A stretch of 64,000 bases of DNA from Giesbergeria sp. (lineage in GTDB: Bacteria > Pseudomonadota > Gammaproteobacteria > Burkholderiales > Burkholderiaceae_C), in assembly GCA_034676525.1 (NCBI GenBank), contig JAUCCA010000012.1, positions 417,033 through 481,032 on the forward strand, given 5' to 3'. Numbering within the stretch: the stretch's first letter is position 1; the number at the start of each line of letters is the position of its first letter. Positions 6,547 through 21,639 of the stretch are shown here, piece by piece. The position numbers and the translations under genes were made by a program. The notes beneath the pieces were generated by a model. That model did no database searches. It was not told where the DNA came from and worked only from the letters and a program-made list of their open reading frames with translations.

Positions 6547-7782
6547 TCAGTGCGTCGGCAACCCGTCCAGCTCCTCGCTTGTCGGCTCAGCCTGAGGCTC
6601 ACGATGTCGGCTGGCCAGCCAGGGGGCGGGGGCATGGGCAACCCGGTTGCGTCCTTGGCGCTTGGCCTCGTATAAAGCTTCGTCGGCCCGTGCCAAGGTG
6701 CTCTCAATAGGCTCGCCGCGGTGATGTGTCGTCCAGCCGATGGAGACCGTCATCTGGATTTTCTCCTCGCCCACAACCATCGACGTGTGCTCCAAGCTTC
6801 TGCGCAAGCGCTCAAGCAGTTCCGCCGCATGGGCTTGCCGGGTGTCACACAGCAACAATACGAATTCTTCCCCTCCCCAGCGGGCGAACACATCGCCGCT
6901 GCGCAGTTCACGGCCCACGACCTTCGCAAACAGCTGCAGCGCTCGGTCGCCGGCGTTGTGGCCGTGCTGGTCGTTGATGGCCTTGAAGTGGTCTATGTCG
7001 AGCTGCGCGAGCAGAAGGCTGCGTCCGCTTCGTTCACAGCGAAGCAGTTCCAGCGCCATCAGTTCGGACATCTGCCGTCTGTTGAACAAGCCCGTGAGCT
7101 CATCGCGCATGGCCAATTCGCGAATTTGCACCAGTGCGACCTCCAGCTCACGCTTTTGACCACGCAGACGCGCCCGAATGCTCTGTACCTGTAAGCACAT
7201 CAACGTGCCCGCAAGCAGAGACAACAGCACGATGGTGAGATGGGCTGCCACCACTGCAATGGAAGGCTTTGAAGCCTCAAGGTAAGCGGCGCCGAGCACG
7301 GCAAGCGAATACAGGCCCATCGAGTAGAGCATGAGGAACACCGTCTGGCGCCGGTCGCGCCCGAAGATACCGAACATCAAAATAATGACCAGCACCGGAA
7401 GCACGAGCGCACGAACTGGGCCGGCAATAACGTAGGCGACCGCATTGCACGTCAGTGCCCACTGCATCTGAAACAGCGTCATGGAAGGGTCCGCCATGCG
7501 TTCGCTGTAGCCGCTTCTCACCATGAGCAGCGCAGCAGCCAGCCCACCGACCGCAAACGCCGACCACCAGTTAACCAAGCGCGGATCCATGTCGCCACTG
7601 GCCGCCAGCACCCGCATCGCCAAGGCGCAACACACCATCATCAGAGTGGCCAGCCCGGCCATGGTGGTGCGGCGACGCCGCTTCTCCTCGCTTCCGAGCA
7701 GGCGCGTCAACCACTGCGATGCGGGGGTGGCAGATTGGGGCACGAGACGCGTTAAGGAGAATGGGGAGCGCAGACAAAACAT
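6547..7782 (-). CDS. Membrane-bound diguanylate cyclase
   Basis: Multi-TM N-terminus, DELTGLFNRR, RSGD I-site and RWGGEEF. Start uncertain (7782 or a downstream ATG). Confidence 0.9.
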   Translation of the reverse strand: MFCLRSPFSLTRLVPQSATPASQWLTRLLGSEEKRRRRTTMAGLATLMMVCCALAMRVLAASGDMDPRLVNWWSAFAVGGLAAALLMVRSGYSERMADPSMTLFQMQWALTCNAVAYVIAGPVRALVLPVLVIILMFGIFGRDRRQTVFLMLYSMGLYSLAVLGAAYLEASKPSIAVVAAHLTIVLLSLLAGTLMCLQVQSIRARLRGQKRELEVALVQIRELAMRDELTGLFNRRQMSELMALELLRCERSGRSLLLAQLDIDHFKAINDQHGHNAGDRALQLFAKVVGRELRSGDVFARWGGEEFVLLLCDTRQAHAAELLERLRRSLEHTSMVVGEEKIQMTVSIGWTTHHRGEPIESTLARADEALYEAKRQGRNRVAHAPAPWLASRHREPQAEPTSEELDGLPTH

Positions 7783-7818
7783 AGGGGTCCGCGCATTGTG
7801 GACCCCTATGTTACTTTT
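7772..7818. terminator. Perfect 11-bp hairpin with T-rich tails on both strands
   Basis: CATAGGGGTCC (7780-7790), 9-nt loop, GGACCCCTATG (7800-7810). Followed by TTTTGTCT on minus and TTACTTTT on plus. Confidence 0.6.
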
Positions 7819-7934
7819 CGTGTCAGACAACTGCCCGTCGGCTGGCAGCGCGCGGCGTGCCTGCGCTCCGAATGCGTGCATCGCGCACCTGCGCCACCCG
7901 CATGTTCACTGGTGGGCCTGCGCGCCTTTACTCT

Positions 7935-9872
7935 TTACGCTTTGGTGTCCAGCTCAGAAGCGATGATGGTTGGCGTGTGTGCTGCGGGCACAAACGCATC
8001 CGAGAAGCAGGCACCTTCTGCCAGACCCTGCGCAAGGAAAGCCGGCACAGCCGCGTCCACCATGCGCACGGAGCCACACAGGTACACCTCGTGACCGCTA
8101 AGGTCAGGGAAATCGGCCAGCATGGCTTCGTGGACCAATCCGGTGCGCCCCTTCCACCCATCGCCTTCGACCGACTCAGACACGACAGGCACCACGCTGA
8201 AGTTGCTGTGGTCGCTTTGCCACTGCTCGCAAAGCGCCAGCATGTACAGATCTTTGCTGTCGCGCACGCCCCAGTACAGGCGCATGGGCCGCGTAACGCC
8301 ACGGGCAAAGGCGTCTTCGACAATGCTCTTGATGGGTGCGAAACCCGTCGCGCCGGCAATAAAGAGAATCGGCTGTGCACCGTCGCGCAGCGTGAACTGA
8401 CCGCGCGGTCCTTCAAACTTGATGGTGTCGCCTACCTGCATGCCCTCAAACACGTGCGTGGTAAAGCGCCCACCCGGCACCAGCCGCACATGCAACTCGA
8501 TAAGTGCGTTGTTCTGCGGTGCATTTGCAAAGGAGAAGGCACGGCGCTCGCCGTTGTCCAGCACGATGTCGATGTACTGGCCGGCGTCAAAGGCCAGGCG
8601 ATCTGCGCCGGGGAGTTCAAGACGCAGGCGCATGACGTCTTCCGCCAAATGCTCCATGTGGACCACGCGCGCCTCGTACTGCGGAATTTCAACAGCGCTG
8701 GCGCCTGTAAACCCATCGACCGAAATGACGACGTCGCCGTTGGGCACCGCGCAGCACATCAGTGCCAGGCCGCGCGCCAACTGTGCATCGGACAGTGCCG
8801 CCTTCTGGTAGGGGCGGTGCTCGACCGTGCCCTGCTCCATGGTGCACATGCACAGCCCGCAGGCGCCGTTGCGGCACTCGTACGGCAAAGCAAGGCCGTC
8901 GCGCAGGCCCGCGTCAAGCAGCGTTTCGCCCGGGCGCAAGCTGAACTCAGCAGCGTTGCCGCCCTCGCCGCGCACGGTGGCGTGCAGGGTGCCTTGACCC
9001 TTTCGGCGGGGCTGCGGCCACAGCGGCAACAAGAGCAGGACGACCGTCAACACAGACACCAGCGCCCACACCCGCCCCAGCGGCCACTCGCTCAGCAGCG
9101 GATACAGCGCAAGCAGGAACCAGTCAAGCTTCACGTCCATCACGGCTTTGGCCAAGTCGGCTGCACCGCCTTGGCTCTGAACGGGCGCTACCAATGCCAT
9201 CACCAGAAACGTGACAACCAAGCCAATGATGGTTTCCCGTGGCGGCGTGGTGCGGGCCTTGGGCACCCGCTGCACGTGAATCCACATGACGAGCAGCACG
9301 ACCAGCGGCAGACCAATGTGCAGGAAAGAAAGCAGCGAGAAGAAGCGGTCGCTCACGCTGTCGGCATACACAAAGTTGCGCATCAGCGTGCCGCTAAACG
9401 GCGGCAGCCAGTCGAGCATTTCGAAGCTGGTAACCGTGACGTACTGCGCCAGCGCGTCCCACGGCAGCATGTAGCCATTGATGCCCGAGGCATAGACCAA
9501 CCAGATCAATGCGACCCCGGTGACCCAAGAGAACCAGCGGAAACCGTGGAAAAGATCAAACGCGAAATACCGCAGCATGTGCAGCATCATGGTAAGCACC
9601 ATGGCGTCCGATGCGTAGCGGTGCACGCTGCGCAGGATGCCGCCCAGCCACCACTGACCGTTGGTCAGCGACTCGACGGAATCGTATGCGCCCGAGACAC
9701 CGGTTTCAAAGAACGCATACAAATACAGCCCGGTACCGCCGACGATCCAGAAAAGAAAGAACGTGATCGAACCGAGGTGGTACAGAGGGTTGATGCGATC
9801 GCCAAAGGCACGATTGAACAGCGCCTCAACGCGCATGAACATCCACTGCAGGATCGATTGGAACGCTTTCAT
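7935..9872 (-). CDS. Fusion: cytochrome b (b/b6-type) + [2Fe-2S] ferredoxin + FAD/NAD(P)H reductase (FNR-like)
   Basis: Four heme-b His (SVHRY..MLHML, FLHIG..WIHVQR). CRNGACGLC...MCC ferredoxin. RAFSFAN, GPRGQF, AGATGFAP and YLCGS FNR motifs. Confidence 0.88.
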   Translation of the reverse strand: MKAFQSILQWMFMRVEALFNRAFGDRINPLYHLGSITFFLFWIVGGTGLYLYAFFETGVSGAYDSVESLTNGQWWLGGILRSVHRYASDAMVLTMMLHMLRYFAFDLFHGFRWFSWVTGVALIWLVYASGINGYMLPWDALAQYVTVTSFEMLDWLPPFSGTLMRNFVYADSVSDRFFSLLSFLHIGLPLVVLLVMWIHVQRVPKARTTPPRETIIGLVVTFLVMALVAPVQSQGGAADLAKAVMDVKLDWFLLALYPLLSEWPLGRVWALVSVLTVVLLLLPLWPQPRRKGQGTLHATVRGEGGNAAEFSLRPGETLLDAGLRDGLALPYECRNGACGLCMCTMEQGTVEHRPYQKAALSDAQLARGLALMCCAVPNGDVVISVDGFTGASAVEIPQYEARVVHMEHLAEDVMRLRLELPGADRLAFDAGQYIDIVLDNGERRAFSFANAPQNNALIELHVRLVPGGRFTTHVFEGMQVGDTIKFEGPRGQFTLRDGAQPILFIAGATGFAPIKSIVEDAFARGVTRPMRLYWGVRDSKDLYMLALCEQWQSDHSNFSVVPVVSESVEGDGWKGRTGLVHEAMLADFPDLSGHEVYLCGSVRMVDAAVPAFLAQGLAEGACFSDAFVPAAHTPTIIASELDTKA

Positions 9873-11329
9873 GAAGAAACCACCATTTCGCTGGCAGCGG
9901 GCAGGCCCGCGCCTGGATGGCGACGCATCGCGCGCACTGCCACCACAATGAACAAAACACCACCCACGATGGCAACCAGACCCCCCAGGCCCATCAACGC
10001 CATGCCTGCGACTTCCGCATTGGAGCGCAAGACCTGCTCAGCGCCCGCCACTTTGCGCTGTACGCCGTAGCCGCCCGACCACACCAATCCAACAATGTGC
10101 ATCAGCTGGCCGAGGCCATAAACCCAAGGCTGTGCAACCGCCAAGCGCCCCTTAGGCGCTGCGTATCCGAGGAATGGCAGCAGGTGGTACACGAGCCCCA
10201 TAAGCGCGAGCGTCACACCGACGATGCAGCCGTGGTAGTGCGCAGGGATGCGCACATTGCTGCCGCTGATGAAGATCCCGATCACCCCGCCGGCACCAAA
10301 CAGCAATATCGAAGACAGCACGGCAGCGCGCAGCGGGTGTTGCGTGTCGCGTGTGAGCGGCAAGCGGTACAGCGCCACGACCACCGCCAACGCCACCGGC
10401 ACGATGGCGGTGCCGCCGCCTGCGCGCATCGCCCACGTCAACAGCGCGCGGTGTTCCACCGAGCTGATGTCGTAGGCAAGGTAGGCCCAAGGCGTCACAA
10501 ACACGCCCACCAATGCCAACGCGAACATAAACAAAGTGACACGCGGACTCAGCCGCAAGGTCGCGCCGCAGGCATTCGCCAGCCACAGCCACCCCACCAA
10601 CATGAGCAGCGTCCAGGTGAATTGCAGCGCGTGGCCCCCACCCCAAAACAAAATCTCGTAATACGCTTTGCCGGTCAGCGAGAGCGGCAATTGCACAAAC
10701 GACCAGCCAAACGCGAGGAGCGCGACCACTGTGGCCACCGCTGCCGCGCCCAAGCCAAAGCCCAGCGCACCTCGGCCATCAAACGCCGTACCGAGGCGTG
10801 GCGCGGCCAAGATGCCGCGCAGCGCGAGCACACCGACACCCAGACCAAAAACCACAAGACCACCGAGGAACATCGGTGAGCGCAACACGGGAATGTAATT
10901 GGCCATGATCGGCTCGCCCGCGTTCAGGAAGGGCGCGAGCGTCATGGCGGCTGTGCCGATGGCACAGATCCAAAGCGCAGCCCACCCCCAACGCAGACCC
11001 TGGGCGGTGCCGTACAGACTCCAGAGCAGGCCCGCCATCGCCATGAACCACACGAGGACCGACAGGTCCACATGCAGCACCAAGGAAACATGAAAAAAGT
11101 CGGCTGCAGGTAGCAGCCGGTTTACGCCCGGTGTACGCGAGAGCACCAGCAGAATGGAAAAGAGGCCAGAGCCCACCAGCGCCACTAGGCCAAGCCACAA
11201 CCAGCCTCGTGCCAAGCTGCGGCGCGCATCCTGCGGGACGGCAAGCGAATAGTCTGCCGCGGCTGAGGCGGGCACGGGCCTAGCAGACCCGCCGGCGACA
11301 CCAATGGAAGACGGAGCGACCGCGCTCAT
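9869..11329 (-). CDS. Divergent heme-copper oxidase subunit I-like membrane protein lacking the helix VII His-His pair
   Basis: Multi-TM. LVLHVDLS (helix II His), FWGGGHALQF (helix VI His) and IPAHYHG (helix X HxH) are kept; the HH pair aligns to AY. Confidence 0.75.
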   Translation of the reverse strand: MSAVAPSSIGVAGGSARPVPASAAADYSLAVPQDARRSLARGWLWLGLVALVGSGLFSILLVLSRTPGVNRLLPAADFFHVSLVLHVDLSVLVWFMAMAGLLWSLYGTAQGLRWGWAALWICAIGTAAMTLAPFLNAGEPIMANYIPVLRSPMFLGGLVVFGLGVGVLALRGILAAPRLGTAFDGRGALGFGLGAAAVATVVALLAFGWSFVQLPLSLTGKAYYEILFWGGGHALQFTWTLLMLVGWLWLANACGATLRLSPRVTLFMFALALVGVFVTPWAYLAYDISSVEHRALLTWAMRAGGGTAIVPVALAVVVALYRLPLTRDTQHPLRAAVLSSILLFGAGGVIGIFISGSNVRIPAHYHGCIVGVTLALMGLVYHLLPFLGYAAPKGRLAVAQPWVYGLGQLMHIVGLVWSGGYGVQRKVAGAEQVLRSNAEVAGMALMGLGGLVAIVGGVLFIVVAVRAMRRHPGAGLPAASEMVVSS

Positions 11330-11829
11330 AGCAACACGATGCCTCCGCGTTCGGCATCGAAGTCAATGACCAGCACTTGTGAAGGTTTGAGATTCACAGT
11401 CGCTTCGTGCTGGTGGTTAAACCCGTCGGTCGCGTTGGTGTCGCGCATACGCACCGTAATGCGGTGCGTGCCAGCGCCGACCTCCAGGCGCTTGTAGACA
11501 GTGGAAGCACCATCGCGCGAGAGCCCTGACGGTGCGGCGGTGTGGCGATAGGCAGGCTTACCGTCGATGTCGAGCTCCACCGTCACGGAAGCACGTTCGC
11601 GCTCGCACTTGAGTGGCGCGCGCATGTTGGGCGCCAACTTGGCGAGCTCCTCTGCCGTATAGGGGCGGCACTCTGCAACGCGCTGCCCGTGGTGGACGAA
11701 GCTCAGCTTGATGAGCGCCTCATCCGCCGCGAGCGGCGAGAACGCTGGCCACTGCGAAAAAACGCCTACCAGCAGCGCAAAACTGCCGTACAGCAGTGCT
11801 TGGCCTGCGAGGACGAAAACGCGATTCAT
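11326..11829 (-). CDS. Membrane-anchored hypothetical protein (one TM, beta-rich soluble domain, 2 Cys)
   Basis: 4-nt overlaps with both neighbours; N-terminal hydrophobic helix; HHG and C..C motifs. Confidence 0.8.
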   Translation of the reverse strand: MNRVFVLAGQALLYGSFALLVGVFSQWPAFSPLAADEALIKLSFVHHGQRVAECRPYTAEELAKLAPNMRAPLKCERERASVTVELDIDGKPAYRHTAAPSGLSRDGASTVYKRLEVGAGTHRITVRMRDTNATDGFNHQHEATVNLKPSQVLVIDFDAERGGIVLL

Positions 11830-13490
11830 GCAAAAGACTCCGAATGGACAAAAGATTCTGCCGTGCGCACGCGCAGGGCCTTGAGCGCGGCCGCGAGCGC
11901 GGCCTCATCACCAGCATCGACGGCAACCAGCGACCAAGCTTCCTTCGGTACGCTGGCACGCAGGCGTGGCTCACGTTGACCGTTAAGACGCTCGCGCGTC
12001 CAGCGCTCACCCAGCCGAAATTCGCAGCCGCCTTCACGACAAGTCGCCACCAGCACGCCAGTGGCGCCTGCACGCAAGGCGTATTCAAGAAACGATGGCG
12101 GCAGCAAACCTGTGCACACCAGCGGCAGCGTCAAGACATCGTCCGCGGCAACCCCGGCCAGCTGCGCGCCTTGCGCACAGCCAAACACCACAAAGCGCTG
12201 AGACCCTGAAAGTGCCGCAAGACCAGCCAGCATCTGCTGGCGCAATGCATCAATCGGCCATTGCGGCATGTCGATACCAGTATGCAGCACCTGCGCGCTG
12301 CGAAACGGCGTGGACGATGGGCAAGAGCCCACGCAAATGCCGCAACTGGCACACAAGTCGCTGCGCACCTGCGCCAGCTCCATGCCCACACGGCCGTTGG
12401 GATGCGGCACCATGGTGATCGCCGCGTAAGGGCAGTCTTCGACGCAGCGCCGGCAGCCGCTGCAGTGGTCGGGGTTGACCTCAGCGACCGCTTGCTCCAG
12501 CGCCAGTGGACGCCACGCGGTATGCGAAGTGGCGGGTGCGCCCAAATTTGACAGAAGCGCCGGCGCTACTGCCAACGCGGGGCGGCGACGCAGACCCAAC
12601 CATGGCAAAGCCACAAGCACAGCCATCACCAGCCCGAGCAGGCCCCACACCGCTCCCGCGGATGTGGCTGCGGTCAGGGGATGGATGAAAAGCAGCCACC
12701 AGTCGTACGCCAGCGCTTGCGGCACGGTGCTCAAGTCTGCGGGACCCTGACTGCGCACTGGCAAGAAGGCCGCGAGCATAAGCATGGCCAATAGCGTGCC
12801 AATTGCCAGCGTGCGCGGCGGGAACACTGAAGCGCGACTAATGCGCTGCACGTGGAACCACAAACCAAACACCAGCAAAAGGGGCACGCCCAAGTGCACA
12901 AAGACGAACAGCGAGAACAGCCGGTCGTTCAACTGCGTGCCACTCAGAAAATTGCGCGCCAGCGGCGAGGCCAGCCCGGGCAGTACATCAAGCCACTCGG
13001 CTGTCGCTGTGGCGGAAAACTGCCCGAGGCGGTCCCAGTTCAGCCAGAAGCCGCCAATCGCAGAAACGAAAAGGAGCGGCAGCAGCGGGACGCCCGTCAG
13101 CCAAGACGCTGCGCGAAAACTCCGAAATCGCCCCAACATCCATTCGCGCAGCACGTGCGCCAGCACCACCACGACCATGGCGTCGGCGCTGTAGCGGTGC
13201 AGGCCGCGCAGCAGGCTGCCCCACTGCCTAGGCTCGCGCGACAACGCATCAATTGATTGGTAGGCGCCACTGGCTGAGGTGTCGAGCACGGCATACAGAA
13301 TCACTCCGCTGAACACCAGAAGCCACAGCAACCAGAAACCCAGCGCACCCAGATGCTTGAGAGGATTGCCACTGACTCCCGCCAGTGCGTCGAATCCGTG
13401 CTCGCACGCGCGCCAAAGCCTTGCCGACGCGTGCGGCGCCACCGCAATGGGGAGCGAACTGGAAGAGGCAGCCATATGCGGCGAATTCAC
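11826..13490 (-). CDS. Fusion: cytochrome b + 2x[4Fe-4S] ferredoxin + MvhD/FlpD-like [2Fe-2S] domain
   Basis: Four heme His (GLHRY..LAHVL, FVHLG..WFHVQR). CSGCRRCVEDCP and CASCGICVGSCP. C-terminal VFGC...VCTG...GATGVLVATCREGGCEF matches the MvhD pattern. Confidence 0.85.
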   Translation of the reverse strand: MNSPHMAASSSSLPIAVAPHASARLWRACEHGFDALAGVSGNPLKHLGALGFWLLWLLVFSGVILYAVLDTSASGAYQSIDALSREPRQWGSLLRGLHRYSADAMVVVVLAHVLREWMLGRFRSFRAASWLTGVPLLPLLFVSAIGGFWLNWDRLGQFSATATAEWLDVLPGLASPLARNFLSGTQLNDRLFSLFVFVHLGVPLLLVFGLWFHVQRISRASVFPPRTLAIGTLLAMLMLAAFLPVRSQGPADLSTVPQALAYDWWLLFIHPLTAATSAGAVWGLLGLVMAVLVALPWLGLRRRPALAVAPALLSNLGAPATSHTAWRPLALEQAVAEVNPDHCSGCRRCVEDCPYAAITMVPHPNGRVGMELAQVRSDLCASCGICVGSCPSSTPFRSAQVLHTGIDMPQWPIDALRQQMLAGLAALSGSQRFVVFGCAQGAQLAGVAADDVLTLPLVCTGLLPPSFLEYALRAGATGVLVATCREGGCEFRLGERWTRERLNGQREPRLRASVPKEAWSLVAVDAGDEAALAAALKALRVRTAESFVHSESFA

Positions 13491-14347
13491 ATTCGGCGAG
13501 GTCGCCCACGGTTGCGCCGACTCGCCCGCAATTCATTGATGAAGAACACGATCATGACAATGAAAAAAGTGATGCCACCTGCCACCTGGATCGGTAAGGT
13601 GTAGTCCGCTCGGTACTCGCCTGTCTTGATGTCGTACACCGTGCACACGAGGCGAATGCGCTCGAACAGCGTGTCGAGCACGCGGTCATGGAAAACAGGA
13701 GAGCCAGCCAGAAGCAGCCGAAGGGGTTCGCCCAGATCGGCGGCATTGAGTTGCTCGCCATAGATTTGCCGCACGATGCGGCCTTGCGAATCCACCAGGC
13801 TGAGCTGCAGAACGTGGTCAAAACCGGCAGGCGTAGATTTGTACAAAAAACCAAAATCGCGCGTCAACGCCGGCACGTCTGCCGCGCGGGGGCTAAGGAA
13901 TTCCCAGTTGTCTCTGCCGATACGAAACTGCGCGGCAAATGCCTTGAGCGCTTCTGGAGAATCCTCTGGCTGGTTAAAGCCAATACTCACGACATTGAAT
14001 TGGCCCGGGCCGACACTCTTTTGCAATGCGTCGACGGCAATCTGCAGCGCACGCGTTGTGCCGGGACAGATTTGGAAACAACCGGTGTAGATGAAGCTCA
14101 CCAGCAGGGGTTTGCCGCGATAGCTTGAAAGCGACACCGTGCGGCCCGAGCGGTCGCGGAACAAATGCTCGCCCAGCTCCCTCCCGACTGCGTCTTCGCT
14201 CGCGCGCAATGCGAGGCGCGCGTCAAGCCCGAGCGTGGCGGCCTGCTCAGAGCCGTGCGTGATCGCTTGCGCGGGCAGCGACAGCAGGCATGCCCACCCC
14301 ACCACCCACACCAGCACCAGGGCAGTCAGGGAGCGGGATCGACACAT
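13487..14347 (-). CDS. SCO1/SenC-family copper chaperone
   Basis: FIYTGCFQICP (CxxxC), FDHVL His, thioredoxin-like fold and C-terminal TM. Confidence 0.9.
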   Translation of the reverse strand: MCRSRSLTALVLVWVVGWACLLSLPAQAITHGSEQAATLGLDARLALRASEDAVGRELGEHLFRDRSGRTVSLSSYRGKPLLVSFIYTGCFQICPGTTRALQIAVDALQKSVGPGQFNVVSIGFNQPEDSPEALKAFAAQFRIGRDNWEFLSPRAADVPALTRDFGFLYKSTPAGFDHVLQLSLVDSQGRIVRQIYGEQLNAADLGEPLRLLLAGSPVFHDRVLDTLFERIRLVCTVYDIKTGEYRADYTLPIQVAGGITFFIVMIVFFINELRASRRNRGRPRRM

Positions 14348-14360
14348 AGCAAACTCTCGT

Positions 14361-15260
14361 TCAACGGATCAGGCCGTCCACACAGGCGGCCACGAGCAAG
14401 GTGCTCAATTGGATCAAAGAGGCAAAAAACGCCGACATCGCGTGCGCACGCGTCACTTCGCGCGCCAGCACCCAAGATTTGTACACAAAATGCGCACCGC
14501 CGAAGAATGCGCCAACGGCATACACAGGGCCTGCGCCGTAGAACACAGGAAGCAAAGACGCCACCAACAGTGCGACGGTGCTGACGAACACAATGTGCGC
14601 TGCCCGCTCGTTGCCTACCACCACCGGCAACATTGGCACACCGGCTTGCGCATAGTCGGCGCGGTTGGCAATCGCCAGCGCCCAAAAGTGCGGCGGCGTC
14701 CAGAGAAACAGCACCAACGCAAGCAGCATCGGCAGCGGCCCCAGCGCAGGATCGACTGCCGCGGCGCCTGCCAACACGGCAAAACTGCCGGCCAAGCCGC
14801 CAATCACGATGTTCATGGAGCTGCGGCGCTTGAGCCACACCGTATACACAAAAGCGTAGAAGAAAGCGCCAAGAAACACATAGACGGCAGCAGCGCCGTT
14901 GAGCACCAACCACGCCGCTGCCACCGACCCCACGAGCATGGCGGCCATCAGCACCAACCACGCGGGGTGGTGTGGCAGCGCGCCGGTGACAAAAGCACGC
15001 CGACGCGTGCGCGCCATTAGATGGTCGCTGTTGTGTTCAAAGTACTGATTGAACGCGCCTGCACTGGCGGAAGCCACCAACACAGACAGCGCCAACACCA
15101 GCACCTGAAGCCAGCTGGGCGCTGGGCCAGGTGTTACCACCATGCCCACCAGCGCCGTCACCATGATGAGCGAGCCTATGCGCAGCTTGAACAACGAGAT
15201 GACGTCGCGCGTGCGCTGCACGGCCAGGCTGCGCGCGGGTTGAATCGTGTCGGTGCCCAT
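14361..15260 (-). CDS. ctaB: Protoheme IX farnesyltransferase (heme o synthase)
   Basis: LFKLRI, NQYFEHNSDHLMARTRRR, YTVWLKRR and LWTPPHFWAL. Start at ATG 15260. Confidence 0.92.
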   Translation of the reverse strand: MGTDTIQPARSLAVQRTRDVISLFKLRIGSLIMVTALVGMVVTPGPAPSWLQVLVLALSVLVASASAGAFNQYFEHNSDHLMARTRRRAFVTGALPHHPAWLVLMAAMLVGSVAAAWLVLNGAAAVYVFLGAFFYAFVYTVWLKRRSSMNIVIGGLAGSFAVLAGAAAVDPALGPLPMLLALVLFLWTPPHFWALAIANRADYAQAGVPMLPVVVGNERAAHIVFVSTVALLVASLLPVFYGAGPVYAVGAFFGGAHFVYKSWVLAREVTRAHAMSAFFASLIQLSTLLVAACVDGLIR

Positions 15261-15274
15261 GGCTTGGCTTTCTT

Positions 15275-17002
15275 TCAGGACATGCCCCACAGCTGGGCGA
15301 GGTACTTCCAGTTGATGAAGTAGTACAGCACGAATGCCACCAGGAACACCATGGCCAGCACGAAGCTTCCAGGTGCTACCAAGCCAGCCGACCCGTAAGT
15401 CTGCGCAGCCGCTGTACGTGCAGTCGGTGGAATCGGCGTGAAGCGTGGACTCACAACACCTTGATCGAGCTTCTTGCCCCACAGCAACGAACCGACCGTG
15501 ATGTAGATGTACAGAGCGCCGCCGGCGATGGCCGCCATACCGCCAATACCTACGAGGCCCATCATCAGATAGGCAGCGCCTGGCCATTCATACGCCAGTG
15601 CCGCGCCGCTGAACGCCATGTCCCAGTGCCTGCGCGAGACGCCCAAGGTGCCGGCACCCATCATGACCAAGCAGAAGAAGTACATCGAGAAACCGAAGAG
15701 GTAAGGCTGAATTTTTGCCAGCCCCGGAGAGATGGTTTCGCGCTTGAACAGCACTGGAATCAGGTAGTACGTGAGCGCCATGAACGTCAGCGTCGTGCCG
15801 ACCACCACAGTTGCATGGAAGTGACCAGGCACATAAATGGTGTTGTGAATGATCAGGTTGAGCTGCTCGGTACCCATCATGACGCCCGAAATACCGCCCA
15901 GGAAGCCAAAGCCGACGATGGAGATGAACACACCTGAGAACGTCGGGTTGCCCCAAGGCGCTTTGCGCAGCCACTCAAACAGGCCCTTGTTGTAGCCCTT
16001 GGCGCGTTGCGCCACTTCCATGGCACCGGGAACGGTCAAGCCGTGGATCATCGAAGCCAACACAGCGAAATACATGAAGTAGCTGGTGTTAACGATTTTC
16101 CACTCGGTACTCACACCCGGGTCGGCAAGCAGGTGGTGCGCACTAGCAAGCTGCAAAAACAAGATGTAAAGCAGGAAGGCGCCGCGACTGACGCGCTCGG
16201 ACATGGGCTTGGCGCCAAAACAAACCGCAGCTACCAGGTACCAGATCGAGATGTGCGCCGCTACGTTAATCTGCTGCGACGAGTGACCGAAGGCCCACCA
16301 GATGGTCCGGTAGATCAGCGGGTCGACGTTGTCGATCAGGCCAAGCGCCAGAAGATAGGTGGGGATCAGGATGATCGCGCCAGAGACGATGGTGAACACT
16401 GCAATGATGGCCGCAACGATGGCGCCGAACGTCACCAGCGGCACCGAGCCCTGATAGGTCTTGTCGCGCTTGGCTACCACCAGCGTGCCAAAGAACACGA
16501 AGCAAGCGATCAATGCGCCGACCGCAAAGAGGATCAGACCCAGGTAAAACCAAGGCGTGGCCATCATGGGCACATAAGACGTCATCATCACGCTGGAGCC
16601 GCCGCGGAACACGTCGATGTTGTTCATGACGGCGCCGACCAGCATGAGCGCGTAGGCCAACCATGCCATTTTGGGCGTGGCGATTCGACAGCGCAGCAGC
16701 GTTGAGGCACAGAAATACAGCACCGCGACCTCAAAGAAGATCATCCAGAAGATGAGCATGTTGATGCCGTGCGCGGTAAGCACCAGATAGAACGTGTCGG
16801 CGGCCAGCCAGTGCACGGCGGGCCAGCGCGTCAGCACCACGCCGATGGCGAGGATGCCGCCAACGAGCAAGGCGACCACAGCGGTCACCGCGTTGAAGAT
16901 CATCAGACGTTCGGCGCTGCGTTCGAACTGAAGGCCCGAACGCGGGCAAGTACGGTAGGTGGTGGCGCTGCCTGAGGCGAGCGCAGCAGAAGTTGCGGCC
17001 AT
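15275..17002 (-). CDS. Heme-copper oxidoreductase subunit I, B-family-derived, eNOR-type nitric oxide reductase
   Basis: All six His present (TAHG, GHSSQQIN, SAHH, GHFH). The H+4 Tyr of O2 reductases is Gln (codon 16271-16273). No cytochrome c subunit; partner is a CuA subunit II. Confidence 0.82.
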   Translation of the reverse strand: MAATSAALASGSATTYRTCPRSGLQFERSAERLMIFNAVTAVVALLVGGILAIGVVLTRWPAVHWLAADTFYLVLTAHGINMLIFWMIFFEVAVLYFCASTLLRCRIATPKMAWLAYALMLVGAVMNNIDVFRGGSSVMMTSYVPMMATPWFYLGLILFAVGALIACFVFFGTLVVAKRDKTYQGSVPLVTFGAIVAAIIAVFTIVSGAIILIPTYLLALGLIDNVDPLIYRTIWWAFGHSSQQINVAAHISIWYLVAAVCFGAKPMSERVSRGAFLLYILFLQLASAHHLLADPGVSTEWKIVNTSYFMYFAVLASMIHGLTVPGAMEVAQRAKGYNKGLFEWLRKAPWGNPTFSGVFISIVGFGFLGGISGVMMGTEQLNLIIHNTIYVPGHFHATVVVGTTLTFMALTYYLIPVLFKRETISPGLAKIQPYLFGFSMYFFCLVMMGAGTLGVSRRHWDMAFSGAALAYEWPGAAYLMMGLVGIGGMAAIAGGALYIYITVGSLLWGKKLDQGVVSPRFTPIPPTARTAAAQTYGSAGLVAPGSFVLAMVFLVAFVLYYFINWKYLAQLWGMS

Positions 17003-17017: not shown

Positions 17018-17557
17018 CTATTTGACGTAGAGGCGCCCCACCATCGTGTGGTGGTTGATGCCGCAAAACTCGTTACAAACGATGGAGAACTGACCCGATT
17101 GATTGGGCGTAATCTTCATCACGTGCTCATACCCAGGCACCACCTGGATGTTGATGTTGGTCGGCTGCAGAGAGAAGCCGTGGTTGTAATCCATAGAAGT
17201 CATGTGCAGCTTGTAGGTTTTGTCTTTTTCAAGCTCAAGAATGGGCCACCAGGACCACAGACGCCCGATGAGATAGATGTCGCTGCCCTCAGGCGGATGC
17301 ACGACGGGAATCTTTTCGTCGGTCTCGGTGCGGACGGTGTACTTGTCGACCATGGCCTGCGTCTTGGCAGCAAACATGTCCGGCGTCGTCTTGTAGGTTT
17401 CGGTGGAGAGGTTCTGCTTGCCGTAGATGTGCCAGCCGACCATCATGAAGAACATGACCATGCACCAAGCAAAGGCGATGGCGATCCAGAGGCCTTCGAC
17501 GCGGTCCAGGGGATGTTTCCACCAGAGCCGTTCGGCGGGGGGAAGAATTGCGCTCAT
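17018..17557 (-). CDS. CuA-containing subunit II (single TM, ba3/eNOR-type)
   Basis: DYNHGF and CNEFCGINHHTM CuA ligands; one N-terminal TM helix. Confidence 0.92.
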   Translation of the reverse strand: MSAILPPAERLWWKHPLDRVEGLWIAIAFAWCMVMFFMMVGWHIYGKQNLSTETYKTTPDMFAAKTQAMVDKYTVRTETDEKIPVVHPPEGSDIYLIGRLWSWWPILELEKDKTYKLHMTSMDYNHGFSLQPTNINIQVVPGYEHVMKITPNQSGQFSIVCNEFCGINHHTMVGRLYVK

Positions 17558-17573: not shown

Positions 17574-17729
17574 TTACTTGGCCATGGGAATGGTCAAGAT
17601 TTCGATCACCCCCCACAGTGAGTACACGACCATCGGGACCATCACCCCGATGAACAGTAACAAAAAAGGGTTGTCGAGCAGCTGCTGAATCATCGGCACC
17701 TTCTCGTTTTCGTCGTTATCGTGTTCCAT
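17574..17729 (-). CDS. Small single-TM protein (subunit IIa-like), 51 aa
   Basis: GAGGAG RBS before ATG 17729; one hydrophobic helix; first gene of the operon. Confidence 0.75.
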   Translation of the reverse strand: MEHDNDENEKVPMIQQLLDNPFLLLFIGVMVPMVVYSLWGVIEILTIPMAK

Positions 17730-17788: not shown

Positions 17789-17802
17789 TTGATCTGCGAC
17801 AA
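17789..17802 (-). promoter_or_regulatory. FNR/DNR/NnrR-type box
   Basis: TTGATCTGCGACAA versus consensus TTGAT-N4-ATCAA (2 mismatches). Centred about 41 nt upstream of a start inferred from a GACAAT -10-like hexamer (17767-17762). Confidence 0.65.
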
Positions 17803-17894: not shown

Positions 17895-18860
17895 ATGCAC
17901 GCACCTTCCTCCCCTGACCCCGCGCCGCATCGGCGCCTTTTTTTGCGCCGTGCGGCCTGGATTTGTGCTGTTTTGGTGCTGGTGGTGACAAGCGCCAGCG
18001 CTTTTTTGCGTCAATCTGGCGCCGGTCTGGGTTGCACACCGTGGCCCGCCTGCCACGCCAGCGCGGCGCGCGCCGACGTCGAACGCCCTGCGCCCAGCGC
18101 GGCTGAGCACACGGCTCGCGCCGTGCACCGAGTCGTCGCTTCGTCCTTATTGCTTCTGCTGATGGCCATGACGGCCTTTGCCTGGACAGGCAAGCCGCGG
18201 TTGGCGGTAGAAGGGCGCGTGGTCTTGGTGGCCCTCGGGCTGGTGCTGTTCCTTGCGGTGCTTGGCGTCTTCACTGCCAAGGCTCGCGCGCCAGCGATCA
18301 CCCTTGGCAATCTGTTGGGAGGCCTGCTGCTGTTTGCCGCGTGTGTCCGGCTCGCCGTTACCGCGTGTGCCATCGCCGAACCGCAGCGCAAACACCTGCA
18401 GCGCTGGGCGCTCGTGTCCGGCACCCTGTTGCTCGTGCAGATCGGTTTGGGCGCACTGATCAGCGCCGGGTATGCAGGGTTGAGCTGCCCCGAGCTAAGC
18501 AGCTGCAGCCCAGGCGCCCATGCTTGGGAAGCGTTGAGCCTGCTTCACCCACCCGGAGATGGGGCTGGAATGCCCGGTTATGCGGAGGGCGTTGGCATCC
18601 AACTCCTGCACCGCCTCGCGGCGTTGGCAGTGATGGTGGCGCTTGCAGCATTGGCAAGGTCCGCGTGGCAGGCCCGGCGGCGAGTCGAGGCGGCTGCGCT
18701 CGGGGTGCTCGCTGTACTTCAAGTGGGTTTGGGTGCGACGCTGGTGCTCAGTCAATTGCCGCTGGGCGCAGCGCTTGCGCACAACCTGGTTGCCGCGCTG
18801 CTGCTGGGAACGGTGGCGGCACTCATCGCAGCATCCGCGCGGGTGTCGCCTCGGTTGTGA
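17895..18860 (+). CDS. ctaA: Heme A synthase (CtaA/COX15 family)
   Basis: SGAGLGCTPWPAC, HRVVA, AGLSCPELSSC, HRLAA and AHNL; 8-TM pattern; divergent from the oxidase operon. Confidence 0.82.
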   Translation: MHAPSSPDPAPHRRLFLRRAAWICAVLVLVVTSASAFLRQSGAGLGCTPWPACHASAARADVERPAPSAAEHTARAVHRVVASSLLLLLMAMTAFAWTGKPRLAVEGRVVLVALGLVLFLAVLGVFTAKARAPAITLGNLLGGLLLFAACVRLAVTACAIAEPQRKHLQRWALVSGTLLLVQIGLGALISAGYAGLSCPELSSCSPGAHAWEALSLLHPPGDGAGMPGYAEGVGIQLLHRLAALAVMVALAALARSAWQARRRVEAAALGVLAVLQVGLGATLVLSQLPLGAALAHNLVAALLLGTVAALIAASARVSPRL

Positions 18861-20273: not shown

Positions 20274-21461
20274 TCAGGTCTCGACGTGTTCGTGTGCACT
20301 CCTGAGCACGCCGCGCGGCTCCGCAATCAGCTCGGCCCACTTGCTGTCGCCGTGCAGGGCCACTCGGTCGCGGCCGTGCGCCTTGGCTTCGTAGAGGGCC
20401 TGGTCTGCCTGCTCGAGCATCTGCTCAAGTGCTTGACCCGGCCGACCGGCGGCCAAGCCCGCCGACACTGTGATGCGAACGATGCCGGAGATGGTTTGAA
20501 CTTCCAACGCGGCGACTTCCACGCGTACTCGCTCCAACATCTTTAGCGCGCCGTCCACGGAAGTTTCGGGCAGCAACAGCAAGAATTCTTCACCTCCCCA
20601 ACGCGCCAGCAGGTCGGTACTGCGCAAATTAGCCTGCACACATTGCGCGAAATTACGCAGCACGGCGTCGCCTGCAGCGTGACCGTGGCGGTCGTTAACG
20701 AGCTTGAAAAGATCGATATCCAGCAGAGCCAACACCAGCGGTCGGCCTCCGCGAGCGCAGCGCTCGCGCTCTAGGTCCACGACCTCTGTCATGCGGCGCC
20801 GGTTCAACAGACCGGTCAACTCGTCGTGCGTCGCGAGGTGGTTGATGCGCTCAAGCGCAGCGCCCAGCGCATGTTTCTGGAACTTCAGTCTGCGGCGCAC
20901 ATGTTGAATGCGCACGCCAACGAAGGTGCTTCCCGCCAGCACCAGCACGATCATCACGCCATAGGCGAACTCCAACATGCTGTTGTAGCCGGGCGCGTGG
21001 ACCCAGGCCACGATTCCCATGGCGACCCCGAAGGATGTAAGCGCAAACAGCAGGTTGGCCGCCAACTCCCGCGCGCTGAGGCTGAAGATGCCGAACATCA
21101 GGACCAGCGAGAGGATGACTGGGGTGATGCCGCGCGCGTCGCCCAGCAATGCGTAGCCTGCCGCATTGCTCAAAATGGCGTATCGAATCTGGACCAGGGT
21201 CATAGCGGGGTCGGCCATTGCACGGGTCCAGCCCGCGCGGATGCAGGTGATCGCTGCCGCATTGAACAGCACAGTGGTCGAGATCCAGATCATCACCTGC
21301 TGGACGCTGGCAAAGCCCGCATAGGCCAGCAGAAGGGCCAGCGATCCGCACAGGACGGACAGCAAAGCAGACGCCCCCGTCATCGCCACGCGAATGCGCA
21401 TGTGCGGGTCGCTGCCCAAAAGCCGCTGCATCAGCGCGCTGCGCTTCACGCCAATGGCCAT
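20274..21461 (-). CDS. Membrane-bound diguanylate cyclase, paralogue of 6547-7782
   Basis: HDELTGLLNRR, RSTD I-site and RWGGEEF; same TM architecture. Start uncertain. Confidence 0.9.
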   Translation of the reverse strand: MAIGVKRSALMQRLLGSDPHMRIRVAMTGASALLSVLCGSLALLLAYAGFASVQQVMIWISTTVLFNAAAITCIRAGWTRAMADPAMTLVQIRYAILSNAAGYALLGDARGITPVILSLVLMFGIFSLSARELAANLLFALTSFGVAMGIVAWVHAPGYNSMLEFAYGVMIVLVLAGSTFVGVRIQHVRRRLKFQKHALGAALERINHLATHDELTGLLNRRRMTEVVDLERERCARGGRPLVLALLDIDLFKLVNDRHGHAAGDAVLRNFAQCVQANLRSTDLLARWGGEEFLLLLPETSVDGALKMLERVRVEVAALEVQTISGIVRITVSAGLAAGRPGQALEQMLEQADQALYEAKAHGRDRVALHGDSKWAELIAEPRGVLRSAHEHVET

Positions 21462-21639
21462 GCAATGCCTTTCGTTGAAATCCGGTTGTACCGCCGACGC
21501 GCCTTTGCGAGGAAGGCGGCCCATTCTATGGATGCGCCATTTTGGTGCAAGGCCTGGCCTTTCGACCGATAGGTGCATCTGTCCACCAATTGGGGGGTAT
21601 CGCAGCACGCTTGTAGAACAGCCAGAGTGACAGTAAGAT

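What the first reader, a model, noticed from the sequence alone, without database searches (positions are those of the whole stretch)
7935..13490. Top candidate: a four-gene, two-cytochrome-b redox module co-transcribed with an eNOR-type enzyme
Seen: SCO, cyt b-2x[4Fe-4S]-MvhD, a 167-aa anchored protein, a subunit-I paralogue and cyt b-[2Fe-2S]-FNR are chained by 4-nt stop/start overlaps (13487/13490, 11826/11829, 11326/11329, 9869/9872). Both cyt b domains keep all four heme His, but the Qo-site PEWY reads LDWF and YDWW, and no Rieske or cyt c1 gene is in the window. Established: cyt b normally dimerises within bc complexes, FNR domains exchange electrons with NAD(P)H, and MvhD relays electrons at Hdr/Qmo complexes. 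Inference: the two cyt b fusions form a heterodimeric membrane conduit linking cytoplasmic NAD(P)H and Fe-S centres to quinone or to the periplasmic face. It could feed the NO reductase without bc1, or supply reductant for maturing its heme and metal sites. I know of no biochemical description of such a complex.
Basis: partly seen in the sequence, partly recalled or inferred. Interest (0 to 1): 0.88.

Follow-up and report, generated by a model that had tools for sequence, protein, structure and literature searches.

The report
Accessory redox genes of eNOR cluster
The four genes are real and form a conserved but never-tested accessory set of one large branch of eNOR nitric-oxide reductase gene clusters. 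They most likely carry cytoplasmic electrons to membrane haem proteins that help build the enzyme, not to the working enzyme itself.

Summary
On the minus strand, SCO, cyt b-2x[4Fe-4S]-MvhD, a 167-aa anchored protein, a subunit-I paralogue and cyt b-[2Fe-2S]-FNR are joined by GTGA/ATGA overlaps. They lie behind a Gln-type (eNOR) subunit I.

The set is not new as sequence. The cyt b fusions were catalogued in 2014 as the 'PDWF-FeS clade'. An 'unusual cytochrome b/b6' of Accumulibacter, which I did not match by sequence, dates from 2006. The whole operon was described for Ferrigenium in a 2026 preprint. No biochemistry exists.

New here:
- In 401 Burkholderiales genomes, eNOR, the cyt b fusions and the paralogue occur in the same 50 genomes.
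- Across phyla, every eNOR lineage sampled carries at least part of the set, except one clade (haloarchaea, Rhodothermota, Gemmatimonadota).
- The conserved core is cyt b-FeS-MvhD, the 167-aa protein, the paralogue, SCO and a dedicated CtaA.
- Cyt b-FNR is a betaproteobacterial addition, so a two-cyt-b heterodimer cannot be general.
- The paralogue keeps both haem sites but lacks the CuB/FeB His pair.
- CuA is intact and a normal bc1 exists elsewhere in the genome.

Best reading (about 0.4): an NAD(P)H/Fe-S-fed transmembrane haem wire that serves haem-a/eNOR biogenesis.

The parts
17789..17802 (-). FNR/DNR-type box-like site TTGTCGCAGATCAA (8 of 10 to TTGAT-N4-ATCAA), 60 nt upstream of the small ORF
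   Evidence: Perfect or 9/10 boxes sit at the same relative place in most module-bearing eNOR loci (for example L004-L008, L010, L013, L014, L078, L079, L098, L102). They are mostly absent upstream of the module-less clade.
17574..17729 (-). 51-aa single-TM ORF (MEHDNDENEKVPMIQQLLDNPFLLLFIGVMVPMVVYSLWGVIEILTIPMAK), probably a small eNOR subunit
   Evidence: tblastn finds it directly upstream of coxII in 71 loci of both eNOR clades, including Rhodothermus and haloarchaea.
17018..17557 (-). eNOR subunit II (cupredoxin, CuA)
   Evidence: Pfam COX2. The CuA motif CNEFCGINHHTM is intact here and in 97 of 98 homologues.
15275..17002 (-). eNOR subunit I (P0007)
   Evidence: COX1 214.6 bits. H78, H240, HH289-290 and H394xH396 are present, with Gln244 at the Tyr cross-link position.
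14361..15260 (-). Haem O synthase CtaB (probable start ATG at 15260; the longer ORF to 15587 overlaps subunit I)
   Evidence: TIGR01473 260 bits, above its cut-off. Start codon list.
13487..14347 (-). SCO1/SenC copper chaperone with an N-terminal anchor and an extra C-terminal TM helix
   Evidence: PF02630 49 bits. TM scan.
11826..13490 (-). Six-TM di-haem cytochrome b fused to 2x[4Fe-4S] ferredoxin and an MvhD/FlpD domain (P0004)
   Evidence: More than 2000 homologues. Present in 21 of 23 and 17 of 20 module-bearing loci.
11326..11829 (-). 167-aa protein (P0003): N-terminal TM helix plus periplasmic beta-sandwich with a conserved Cys pair (C54, C75)
   Evidence: 1784 homologues, no Pfam family. 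AF2 pLDDT 88.9. No Foldseek hit below 1e-3. Fused in frame to the C-terminus of cyt b-FeS-MvhD in 8 loci.
9869..11329 (-). HCO subunit-I paralogue (P0002) that keeps both haem sites and the helix-VI His but lacks the helix-VII His-His pair
   Evidence: hhalign to eNOR I gives probability 98% over 414 columns. AF2 pTM 0.80, best fold match ba3 subunit I with TM about 0.7. Invariant H86, H233, Q236 and H364-Y-H366 in 49 sequences.
7935..9872 (-). Six-TM di-haem cytochrome b fused to [2Fe-2S] ferredoxin, FAD and NAD(P)H domains (P0001)
   Evidence: Found only in betaproteobacterial loci.
7778..7812 (-). Terminator-like hairpin followed by TTTTG, the probable operon end
17895..18860 (+). Dedicated, divergent haem A synthase CtaA homologue, transcribed divergently from the operon
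   Evidence: PF02628 109 bits. A ctaA lies at one edge of 35 of 43 module-bearing loci and of 0 of 28 module-less eNOR loci at 60 bits or more.

Best explanation
The four genes, together with SCO, CtaB and a dedicated CtaA, are the accessory (biogenesis) part of a 'proteobacterial-type' eNOR cluster that is switched on at low O2 or by NO.

Proposed mechanism:
- Each cytochrome b fusion is a six-helix, two-haem transmembrane wire. Its Fe-S or flavin domain sits in the cytoplasm.
- In the FNR fusion the electron path is NAD(P)H, then FAD, then [2Fe-2S], then the inner haem b, then the outer haem b.
- In the MvhD fusion an unknown cytoplasmic donor feeds [2Fe-2S]/2x[4Fe-4S] and then the two haems b.
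- The outer haem b lies at the depth where the haems of HCO-fold proteins and of CtaA also lie.
- From there, electrons pass sideways in the membrane to the copper-site-less subunit-I paralogue and/or to CtaA. The paralogue acts as a two-haem holder or scaffold.
- This supports conversion of haem O to haem a(s), or keeps haem reduced for insertion into eNOR.
- The 167-aa protein is a structural periplasmic subunit of the cyt b-FeS protein.

Shown here: gene content, topology, ligand patterns, co-occurrence, the gene fusion and the regulation motif.

Inferred: the direction of electron flow, the acceptor and the biogenesis role.
For: 1. Tight association. eNOR I, the cyt b fusions and the paralogue occur in the same 50 of 401 Burkholderiales genomes. 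They are clustered in 20 of 20 fetched loci despite permuted gene order. They are present in 21-22 of 23 further eNOR loci from alpha-, beta- and gammaproteobacteria, Leptospiraceae and Chloroflexota.

2. The neighbours are biogenesis genes (ctaB, sco, ctaA). A dedicated ctaA co-varies with the module: 35 of 43 module-bearing loci against 0 of 28 module-less ones. It is often directly next to the paralogue.

3. Haem A synthase is known to need a [2Fe-2S] ferredoxin plus a ferredoxin reductase (Cox15 with Yah1/Arh1, PMC7140478). P0001 carries exactly such a pair. Its best NCBIfam matches are oxygenase reductase components: BenC 212 bits, MmoC 193 bits.

4. The paralogue keeps the bis-His and mono-His haem ligands but not the CuB/FeB His pair. 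It therefore binds haem but cannot be a normal reductase. A second paralogue, fused to TPR, sits between ResB/CcsA-like genes and ccmABCEFG in 5 genomes, which is a haem-handling context.

5. Evidence against a role as donor to the working enzyme. CuA is intact. The 167-aa protein has no conserved metal ligands. A canonical bc1 is present.

6. Ferrigenium data. Proteome values are 31.6 for eNOR I/II, 28.0 for the paralogue, 26.2 for cyt b-FNR, 24.7 for Sco1 and 23.9 for cyt b-FeS. Accessory transcripts are about 4-200 times lower than eNOR I/II. These are levels typical of an assembly factor.

7. FNR/DNR-type boxes lie upstream in most module-bearing loci.
Against: - No experiment bears on function.
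- The module-less eNOR clade, which includes the characterised Rhodothermus enzyme, also uses haem a. The housekeeping aa3 oxidase and CtaA of this genome work without the module. The module is therefore not needed for haem A synthesis in general.
- The association between ctaA and the module may reflect a single evolutionary event, so the locus counts are not independent.
- The conserved D-W of the Qo motif suggests that a quinone-type pocket is retained, which the biogenesis model does not need.
- The units of the Ferrigenium proteome table are not stated, and n = 1.
- The ccm-context paralogue could equally be a redox partner of the adjacent multihaem cytochrome.
- No interface prediction could be run.
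Confidence: 0.4

Rival explanations
1. Respiratory role. The cyt b fusions, with the 167-aa protein and the paralogue, form a membrane complex that feeds electrons from NAD(P)H, Fe-S donors or the quinone pool into working eNOR. This would be a bc1-independent or supercomplex donor route, as the first reader and the Ferrigenium preprint suggest.
For: Strict co-occurrence and operon linkage with eNOR I/II. A conserved Qo-like D-W and four haem His. All proteins detected in a denitrifying proteome. Co-regulation through FNR/DNR-type boxes.
Against: - eNOR subunit II keeps a complete CuA site.
- The module has no periplasmic redox cofactor that could reach CuA.
- A canonical bc1 is present.
- Rhodothermus-type eNORs work without the module.
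- The accessory proteins appear far sub-stoichiometric in Ferrigenium.
- Cyt b-FNR is missing outside Betaproteobacteria.
Confidence: 0.2
2. The paralogue plus the cyt b fusions are an enzyme of their own. The high-spin haem of the paralogue, with its distal His233 and Gln236 and fed by NAD(P)H through the haem b wire, reduces or scavenges a small molecule (O2, NO, nitrite or peroxide). This would protect or prime eNOR at the oxic-anoxic transition.
For: The paralogue is more conserved than its neighbours: 72-75% identity between genera, against 62-65% for P0004. It has an invariant pocket motif W-G-x-G-H-x-x-Q and H-Y-H. The NAD(P)H to two-haem design parallels NOX/FRE enzymes.
Against: There is no second metal site and no subunit II. 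No activity is known for any member. The family also occurs without cyt b fusions in a ccm/ResB context. Outside Betaproteobacteria there is no NAD(P)H module.
Confidence: 0.13
3. Reverse electron transport. The cyt b-FNR fusion oxidises quinol and reduces NAD(P)+. This was proposed for the 'unusual cytochrome b/b6' of Accumulibacter and for Ferrigenium.
For: Proposed in the literature (PMC9041414 citing Garcia Martin 2006 and Skennerton 2015; bioRxiv 10.64898/2026.01.22.701106). A Qo-like pocket is retained.
Against: With bc1-type topology the Qo-like site is on the outer side and the flavin is inside. Quinol to NAD(P)+ would then be about 0.4 V uphill, and it would also move electrons inward against the membrane potential. 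The proton-motive force therefore cannot drive it. This is an inference from established bc1 geometry. The idea also does not explain the strict tie to eNOR, ctaA and the paralogue, or the absence of the FNR fusion outside Betaproteobacteria.
Confidence: 0.07

Closest known systems
eNOR operon of Ferrigenium straubiae (bioRxiv 10.64898/2026.01.22.701106, section 6.5.2)
   Same: Same gene set: eNOR II, eNOR I, haem O synthase, Sco1, an 'eNOR scaffold protein' (the subunit-I paralogue), a cyt b-FeS-FAD-NADH protein and a cyt b-FeS protein. All were detected in the proteome.
   Different: Gene order differs. The preprint calls the cyt b genes 'rather unusual' and proposes a quinol:NAD+ supercomplex. 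Here they prove to be the rule for all eNOR lineages but one clade, and thermodynamics and topology argue against that direction.
'PDWF-FeS clade' of cytochrome b (Kao & Hunte 2014, PMC4122944)
   Same: Cyt b with a PDWF-like Qo motif fused to 4Fe-4S + MvhD (Magnetospirillum, Turneriella) or to ferredoxin + flavin reductase (Alicycliphilus denitrificans). No Rieske partner.
   Different: That paper catalogued sequences only. It made no link to eNOR, the paralogue, the 167-aa protein or CtaA.
Cytochrome b of Rieske/cyt b complexes (bc1, b6f)
   Same: Four-helix two-haem core with all four His. Best PDB sequence hit is cytochrome b6, E = 2e-19. An ef-loop motif is retained.
   Different: Only six TM helices, then a cytoplasmic redox domain. 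The motif is xDWx, not PEWY. There is no Rieske protein and no cyt c1 or f. The periplasmic partner (167 aa) has no conserved redox ligands.
Haem A synthase with its ferredoxin and ferredoxin reductase (Cox15-Yah1-Arh1; PMC7140478)
   Same: A [2Fe-2S] ferredoxin and an NAD(P)H reductase are encoded together with CtaA and CtaB.
   Different: Here the pair is fused to a membrane cytochrome b and belongs to the plant-type Fer2/FNR families. No functional link to CtaA has been shown.
NADPH oxidase / ferric reductase (NOX, FRE) type transmembrane reductases
   Same: Works alike in outline: a cytoplasmic NAD(P)H-flavin domain feeds two stacked b haems across a six-helix membrane domain.
   Different: Not homologous. 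The membrane domain is Cytochrome_B (PF00033), not Ferric_reduct, and an extra [2Fe-2S] domain is inserted.
B-family haem-copper oxidase subunit I (Thermus ba3)
   Same: The paralogue has the same 12-helix fold (TM about 0.7) and the three haem-ligand His.
   Different: The CuB/FeB His-His pair is missing. There is no cross-link Tyr, no subunit II, and about 90 fewer residues.

Membership tests
eNOR (the neighbouring enzyme) | Gln in place of the cross-linked Tyr (His+4 on helix VI) | tested here: met
   H240-S-S-Q-Q244. All 100 aligned eNORs read HxxQQ, and outgroups read HxxVY or HxxQY. Criterion taken from PMC8756737.
eNOR (the neighbouring enzyme) | Six canonical His ligands and a CuA-type subunit II | tested here: met
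   His on helix II, helix VI, helix VII (HH) and helix X (HxH). CuA motif CxExCx3Hx2M.
eNOR (the neighbouring enzyme) | NO reductase activity, haem a(s) in both sites | not testable with these tools
   Shown only for the Rhodothermus marinus enzyme (PMC11214002).
Cytochrome b of bc1/b6f complexes | Four His ligating haems bL and bH | tested here: met
   H84, H98, H185 and H199 of P0001 are invariant in 74 fusions and aligned to b6.
Cytochrome b of bc1/b6f complexes | PEWY-type Qo motif | tested here: not met
   LDWF and YDWW. The family pattern is xDWx and Pro is never first.
Cytochrome b of bc1/b6f complexes | Rieske Fe-S protein and cyt c1/f as partners; 8 (or 4+3) TM helices | tested here: not met
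   No Rieske or c1 gene on the contig. Six TM helices followed by a soluble domain.
PDWF-FeS clade of cyt b (Kao & Hunte 2014) | Cyt b with a DWF-type motif fused to a non-Rieske Fe-S domain (4Fe-4S+MvhD, or ferredoxin+flavin reductase) | tested here: met
   Domain hits, motif, definition read. No tree was built with the published members.
Haem-copper oxidoreductase catalytic subunit I (for P0002) | 12-TM HCO fold with low-spin and high-spin haem His ligands | tested here: met
   hhalign probability 98%. Foldseek best match ba3, TM about 0.7. H86, H364 and H366 invariant.
Haem-copper oxidoreductase catalytic subunit I (for P0002) | Three His (or equivalent) binding CuB/FeB | tested here: not met
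   Only H233 is kept. The helix-VII HH pair aligns to T-P-W-A. E292/H293 are not conserved across the family.
MvhD/FlpD electron-relay domain of Mvh-Hdr/Qmo systems (C-terminus of P0004) | FlpD domain | tested here: met
   PF02662 38.3 bits against a cut-off of 22.3. The HdrA2 C-terminal region matches at E = 9e-20.
MvhD/FlpD electron-relay domain of Mvh-Hdr/Qmo systems (C-terminus of P0004) | HdrA-type flavoprotein partner | not tested
   No HdrA-like gene was seen in the loci, but none was searched for genome-wide.
NOX/FRE ferric-reductase family | Ferric_reduct membrane domain with FAD_binding_8/NAD_binding_6 | tested here: not met
   Pfam gives Cytochrome_B, Fer2, FAD_binding_6 and NAD_binding_1 instead. 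The resemblance is functional analogy only.
BenC/MmoC-type oxygenase reductase components (C-terminus of P0001) | Fer2-FAD-NAD domain order and family score | tested here: inconclusive
   The domain order matches. BenC 212 bits and MmoC 193 bits are far below the equivalog cut-offs of 430 and 500.

The most novel reading that the evidence does not exclude
The module, together with the dedicated CtaA, is the missing redox partner system of bacterial haem A synthase. It would be specialised for denitrifiers that must make haem a for eNOR at vanishing or zero O2. The copper-site-less paralogue would hold haem O/a. The cyt b wires would connect the outer-face haem chemistry to cytoplasmic NAD(P)(H)/Fe-S. 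They could act as donor for O2 activation or, in the boldest form, as electron sink for an O2-independent oxidation of the C8 methyl group. This would resolve the paradox, raised for Ferrigenium, that a haem-a enzyme is made under anoxic conditions.
Probability: 0.15. Interest if true: 0.85.

Novelty: new member of a known kind. Interest (0 to 1): 0.58.

Why it matters
eNOR is a widespread N2O-producing enzyme. It occurs in wastewater Accumulibacter, iron-oxidising denitrifiers and many Comamonadaceae.

Nearly all eNOR clusters outside one halophile/thermophile clade carry this untested set of three to four redox genes. Any model of how these organisms make or supply their NO reductase is therefore incomplete.

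The electron donor of bacterial haem A synthase is still unknown. So is the way a haem-a enzyme is matured without O2. This cluster gives a concrete, genetically tractable candidate for both questions.

The subunit-I paralogue is also a large family: more than 5000 database proteins match it. It is an HCO-fold protein without a binuclear centre, and its role is unknown.

Tried and rejected
1. 'The module replaces CtaA.' Rejected. A ctaA homologue lies divergently next to the operon and co-varies positively with the module.

2. The 167-aa protein as a copper or iron chaperone or cupredoxin-like redox subunit. Rejected. H46, H47 and H122 are invariant only within Burkholderiales. Across 52 sequences only the Cys pair and Arg/Asp/Gly positions persist. 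Foldseek gave only generic beta-sandwiches.

3. E292-H293 of the paralogue as a replacement metal site. Rejected. The pair is not conserved in the wider family.

4. Sequence and profile searches of the paralogue against PDB chains found nothing. Only hhalign and fold comparison placed it.

5. An obligate cyt b heterodimer. Rejected as general, from the distribution. It is still possible where both genes exist.

6. Mapping module gain on an eNOR tree. The module-less clade is monophyletic (support 1.0). The deep branching order and root are poorly supported (0.31-0.84), so gain and loss cannot be told apart.

7. RNA evidence for co-transcription.

8. Full-text searches for the original Accumulibacter 'cytochrome b/b6' description found only a secondary citation. 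Identity of that protein with this family was not tested here.

9. The sigma-70 promoter scan was uninformative: 2 found against 2.8 expected.

Full report
**What is in the window**

On the minus strand, genes follow one another with gaps of 16 nt or less, or with 4-nt overlaps:
- a 51-aa single-TM ORF (17729-17574)
- coxII (17557-17018)
- HCO subunit I (17002-15275)
- ctaB (15260-14361)
- SCO (14347-13487)
- cyt b-2x[4Fe-4S]-MvhD (13490-11826)
- a 167-aa protein (11829-11326)
- a subunit-I paralogue (11329-9869)
- cyt b-[2Fe-2S]-FAD-NAD (9872-7935)

A hairpin with a T-run follows the last gene at 7812-7778. A ctaA homologue is transcribed divergently at 17895-18860.

Subunit I has Gln244 at the cross-link Tyr position, which is the published criterion for eNOR.

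The genome's only Rieske/cyt b/cyt c1 operon is on another contig. An aa3 oxidase with a canonical ctaA is also on that contig.

**Anatomy of the four proteins**

*Cytochrome b fusions.* Both have six hydrophobic helices (A-F of bc1 nomenclature) and end after helix F. Their Fe-S or flavin domains are therefore on the same side as the N-terminus, the cytoplasm. NAD(P)H binding also requires this.
- P0001 aligns to cytochrome b6 (E = 2e-19) with the haem His in register.
- In 74 homologues the four His are invariant.
- The Qo motif is xDWx with D and W invariant.

*The 167-aa protein.* It has 1784 database homologues of nearly fixed length and no Pfam family.
- AlphaFold gives an N-terminal TM helix plus a beta-sandwich (pLDDT 88.9).
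- There is no significant structural neighbour.
- Across 52 sequences from several phyla only a Cys pair and some Arg/Asp/Gly positions are conserved. The His residues that are invariant in Burkholderiales are not. It is therefore not a metal centre.
- In eight loci (Alcaligenaceae, Lysobacterales, other Gammaproteobacteria, a betaproteobacterium, Leptospiraceae, Chloroflexota) it is fused in frame to the C-terminus of cyt b-FeS-MvhD.
- This fusion argues that the two are subunits of one complex. It also places the sandwich in the periplasm.

*The paralogue.* It has no sequence hit in the PDB, even with a profile.
- It aligns to eNOR I with 98% probability over 414 columns.
- It folds like ba3 subunit I (pTM 0.80, TM about 0.7).
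- In 49 sequences H86 (helix II), W-G-x-G-H233-x-x-Q236 (helix VI) and H364-Y-H366 (helix X) are invariant.
- The helix-VII His-His pair is replaced, and E292/H293 are not universal.
- It can therefore bind two haems but has no normal CuB/FeB site.

**Distribution**

*Within Burkholderiales.* In an even sample of 401 genomes:
- eNOR I orthologues (58% identity or more) occur in 50 genomes.
- The cyt b fusions occur in exactly the same 50.
- The paralogue occurs in those 50 plus one genome that carries only a distant copy.

Twenty fetched loci from about 14 families all contain coxII, eNOR I, sco, the 167-aa gene, the paralogue and at least one cyt b fusion. Gene order is permuted, and ctaA lies at an edge of the cluster.

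*Across phyla.* A scan of one genome per species with an eNOR alignment returned 80 loci. I searched them with HMMs built here.
- Loci from haloarchaea, Rhodothermus/Salinivenus and Gemmatimonadota: 28 have 7 kb or more downstream, and 0 of 28 have any module gene.
- Loci from Alpha-, Beta- and Gammaproteobacteria, Leptospiraceae and Chloroflexota: 21-22 of 23 carry cyt b-FeS-MvhD, the 167-aa gene and the paralogue.
- Cyt b-FNR is present in 10 of these 23, all betaproteobacterial.

*On an eNOR tree.* The module-less sequences form one clade with support 1.0. All other lineages whose contigs are long enough carry at least part of the set. The Dehalococcoidia locus, for example, has only the paralogue and sco. 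Deeper nodes are weak, so gain and loss cannot be separated.

*ctaA.* A dedicated ctaA (60 bits or more) accompanies 35 of 43 module-bearing loci and 0 of 28 module-less ones. The HMM detects the housekeeping CtaA at 220 bits, so the result is not a sensitivity artefact for bacterial loci.

The 'two-cytochrome-b heterodimer' cannot be the general design. Most lineages have only the MvhD fusion, and two Burkholderiales genomes have only the FNR fusion.

Feeding the reductase without bc1 is unlikely, for these reasons:
- Subunit II keeps all CuA ligands in 97 of 98 sequences.
- The module has no periplasmic cofactor that could reach CuA.
- A normal bc1 is present.
- The purified Rhodothermus enzyme, from the module-less clade, is active as a two-subunit protein.
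- In Ferrigenium the accessory proteins score 23.9-28.0 against 31.6 for eNOR I/II. The values look like log2 intensities, but the units are not stated and n = 1.
- In Ferrigenium their transcripts are roughly 4-200 times lower.

**Direction of electron flow (inference)**

With bc1-type topology the Fe-S or flavin domain lies next to the inner haem, and the Qo-like pocket lies next to the outer haem.

Flow from NAD(P)H outward is downhill and is favoured by the membrane potential. Flow from quinol to NAD(P)+ has been proposed for Accumulibacter (cited in PMC9041414) and for Ferrigenium. That direction would be about 0.4 V uphill and would also work against the potential. I therefore rate it low.

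**Best explanation**

The company these genes keep is biogenesis: ctaB, sco and a dedicated ctaA.

Haem A synthase is known to need a [2Fe-2S] ferredoxin and a ferredoxin reductase in mitochondria (PMC7140478). Its bacterial donor is unknown. P0001 carries such a pair and resembles oxygenase reductase components (BenC, MmoC).

The paralogue is a haem-binding HCO shell without a catalytic metal. A second paralogue, fused to TPR repeats, lies between ResB/CcsA-like genes and ccmABCEFG, next to a multihaem cytochrome, in five genomes. That is again a haem-handling setting.

FNR/DNR-type boxes precede most module-bearing operons. The one in this window matches 8 of 10 positions.

I therefore propose that the cyt b fusions are transmembrane haem wires. 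They would bring cytoplasmic reducing power to outer-face haem sites of CtaA and/or the paralogue during haem a(s) synthesis and loading of eNOR at low O2.

Confidence is about 0.4, for three reasons:
- No experiment exists.
- The module-less clade also makes haem a.
- The association between ctaA and the module may be a single evolutionary event.

**Rivals**

A respiratory donor route (0.2), a separate small-molecule reductase built on the paralogue (0.13) and quinol:NAD(P)+ reverse flow (0.07) remain open.

**Novelty**

- The fusions were catalogued as the 'PDWF-FeS clade', including one from Alicycliphilus, a relative of this organism (PMC4122944).
- An 'unusual cytochrome b/b6' of Accumulibacter has been discussed since 2006. 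I did not test whether it belongs to this family.
- The operon was drawn for Ferrigenium in 2026.
- Earlier notes of this scan reached similar readings of the paralogue and of cyt b-FNR. I treated them as leads and re-tested the parts I use.

- the quantitative co-occurrence
- the split of eNOR into module-bearing lineages and one module-less clade
- identification of the conserved core, with cyt b-FNR as a betaproteobacterial addition
- the natural fusion of cyt b-FeS-MvhD with the 167-aa protein
- the co-variation with a dedicated ctaA
- the ccm-context paralogue
- the conserved 51-aa ORF

The window's cluster is a further member of a known but uncharacterised kind.

Noticed in passing
window 17574-17729 (-): Unlisted 51-aa single-TM ORF directly upstream of coxII. 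It is conserved by tblastn in 71 eNOR loci of both clades, including Rhodothermus and haloarchaea. It is probably a small eNOR subunit comparable to subunit IIa of ba3 oxidase.
   Followed up: partly
window 17789-17802 (-); same relative place in L004-L014, L078, L079, L098, L100, L102 and others: FNR/DNR-type box (TTGAT-N4-ATCAA) upstream of the operon. It is perfect in 13 loci and matches 9 of 10 positions in many more. In this window it matches 8 of 10. It is mostly absent in the module-less clade.
   Followed up: partly
L023-L027 (for example L025 4377-16629): A second paralogue of the copper-site-less subunit I (38-44% identity), fused to C-terminal TPR repeats. It sits in a conserved arrangement: multihaem cytochrome c (~900 aa), ResB-like, CcsA-like, paralogue-TPR, CcmA-B-C-E-F-G. 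This was seen in 5 Burkholderiales genomes, one of them without eNOR.
   Followed up: partly
L078, L079, L080, L081, L082, L096, L099, L108: Cyt b-FeS-MvhD and the 167-aa protein are encoded in one open frame (natural fusion) in eight genomes from four phyla or classes.
   Followed up: yes
L014 and L017: Two copies of the 167-aa gene, one after each cyt b fusion gene. This suggests one anchored sandwich per cyt b protein.
   Followed up: no
window 6547-7881 (-) and 20274-21608 (-): Two 444-aa GGDEF proteins flank the eNOR/ctaA region on either side. They are 40% identical over 368 residues, so they are not a recent duplication. The first ORF probably starts downstream of the terminator-like hairpin.
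   Followed up: no
proteins P0374, P0378, P0380, P0392: HCO subunit I representatives closest to eNOR (39-46% identity) read H-T-x-Q-Y. They have the eNOR-like Gln at +3 but keep Tyr at +4. They branch just outside eNOR in the tree. They may be intermediates between B-family oxidases and eNOR.
   Followed up: no
proteins P0421, P0443, P0450, P0506: An HCO-like group with F-H-x-x-H-Y on helix VI, Y-H instead of H-H on helix VII, and Y-x-H instead of H-x-H on helix X. This is an unusual ligand set that I could not place.
   Followed up: no
G121, G297, G386, G346; G297, G346: In-frame TGA or TAG codons were reported inside otherwise full-length matches to the paralogue or eNOR I in several genomes. 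I did not examine whether these are pseudogenes, sequencing errors or something else.
   Followed up: no
window 13487-14347 (-): The SCO protein has a second hydrophobic helix near its C-terminus (residues 252-270) in addition to the N-terminal anchor.
   Followed up: no
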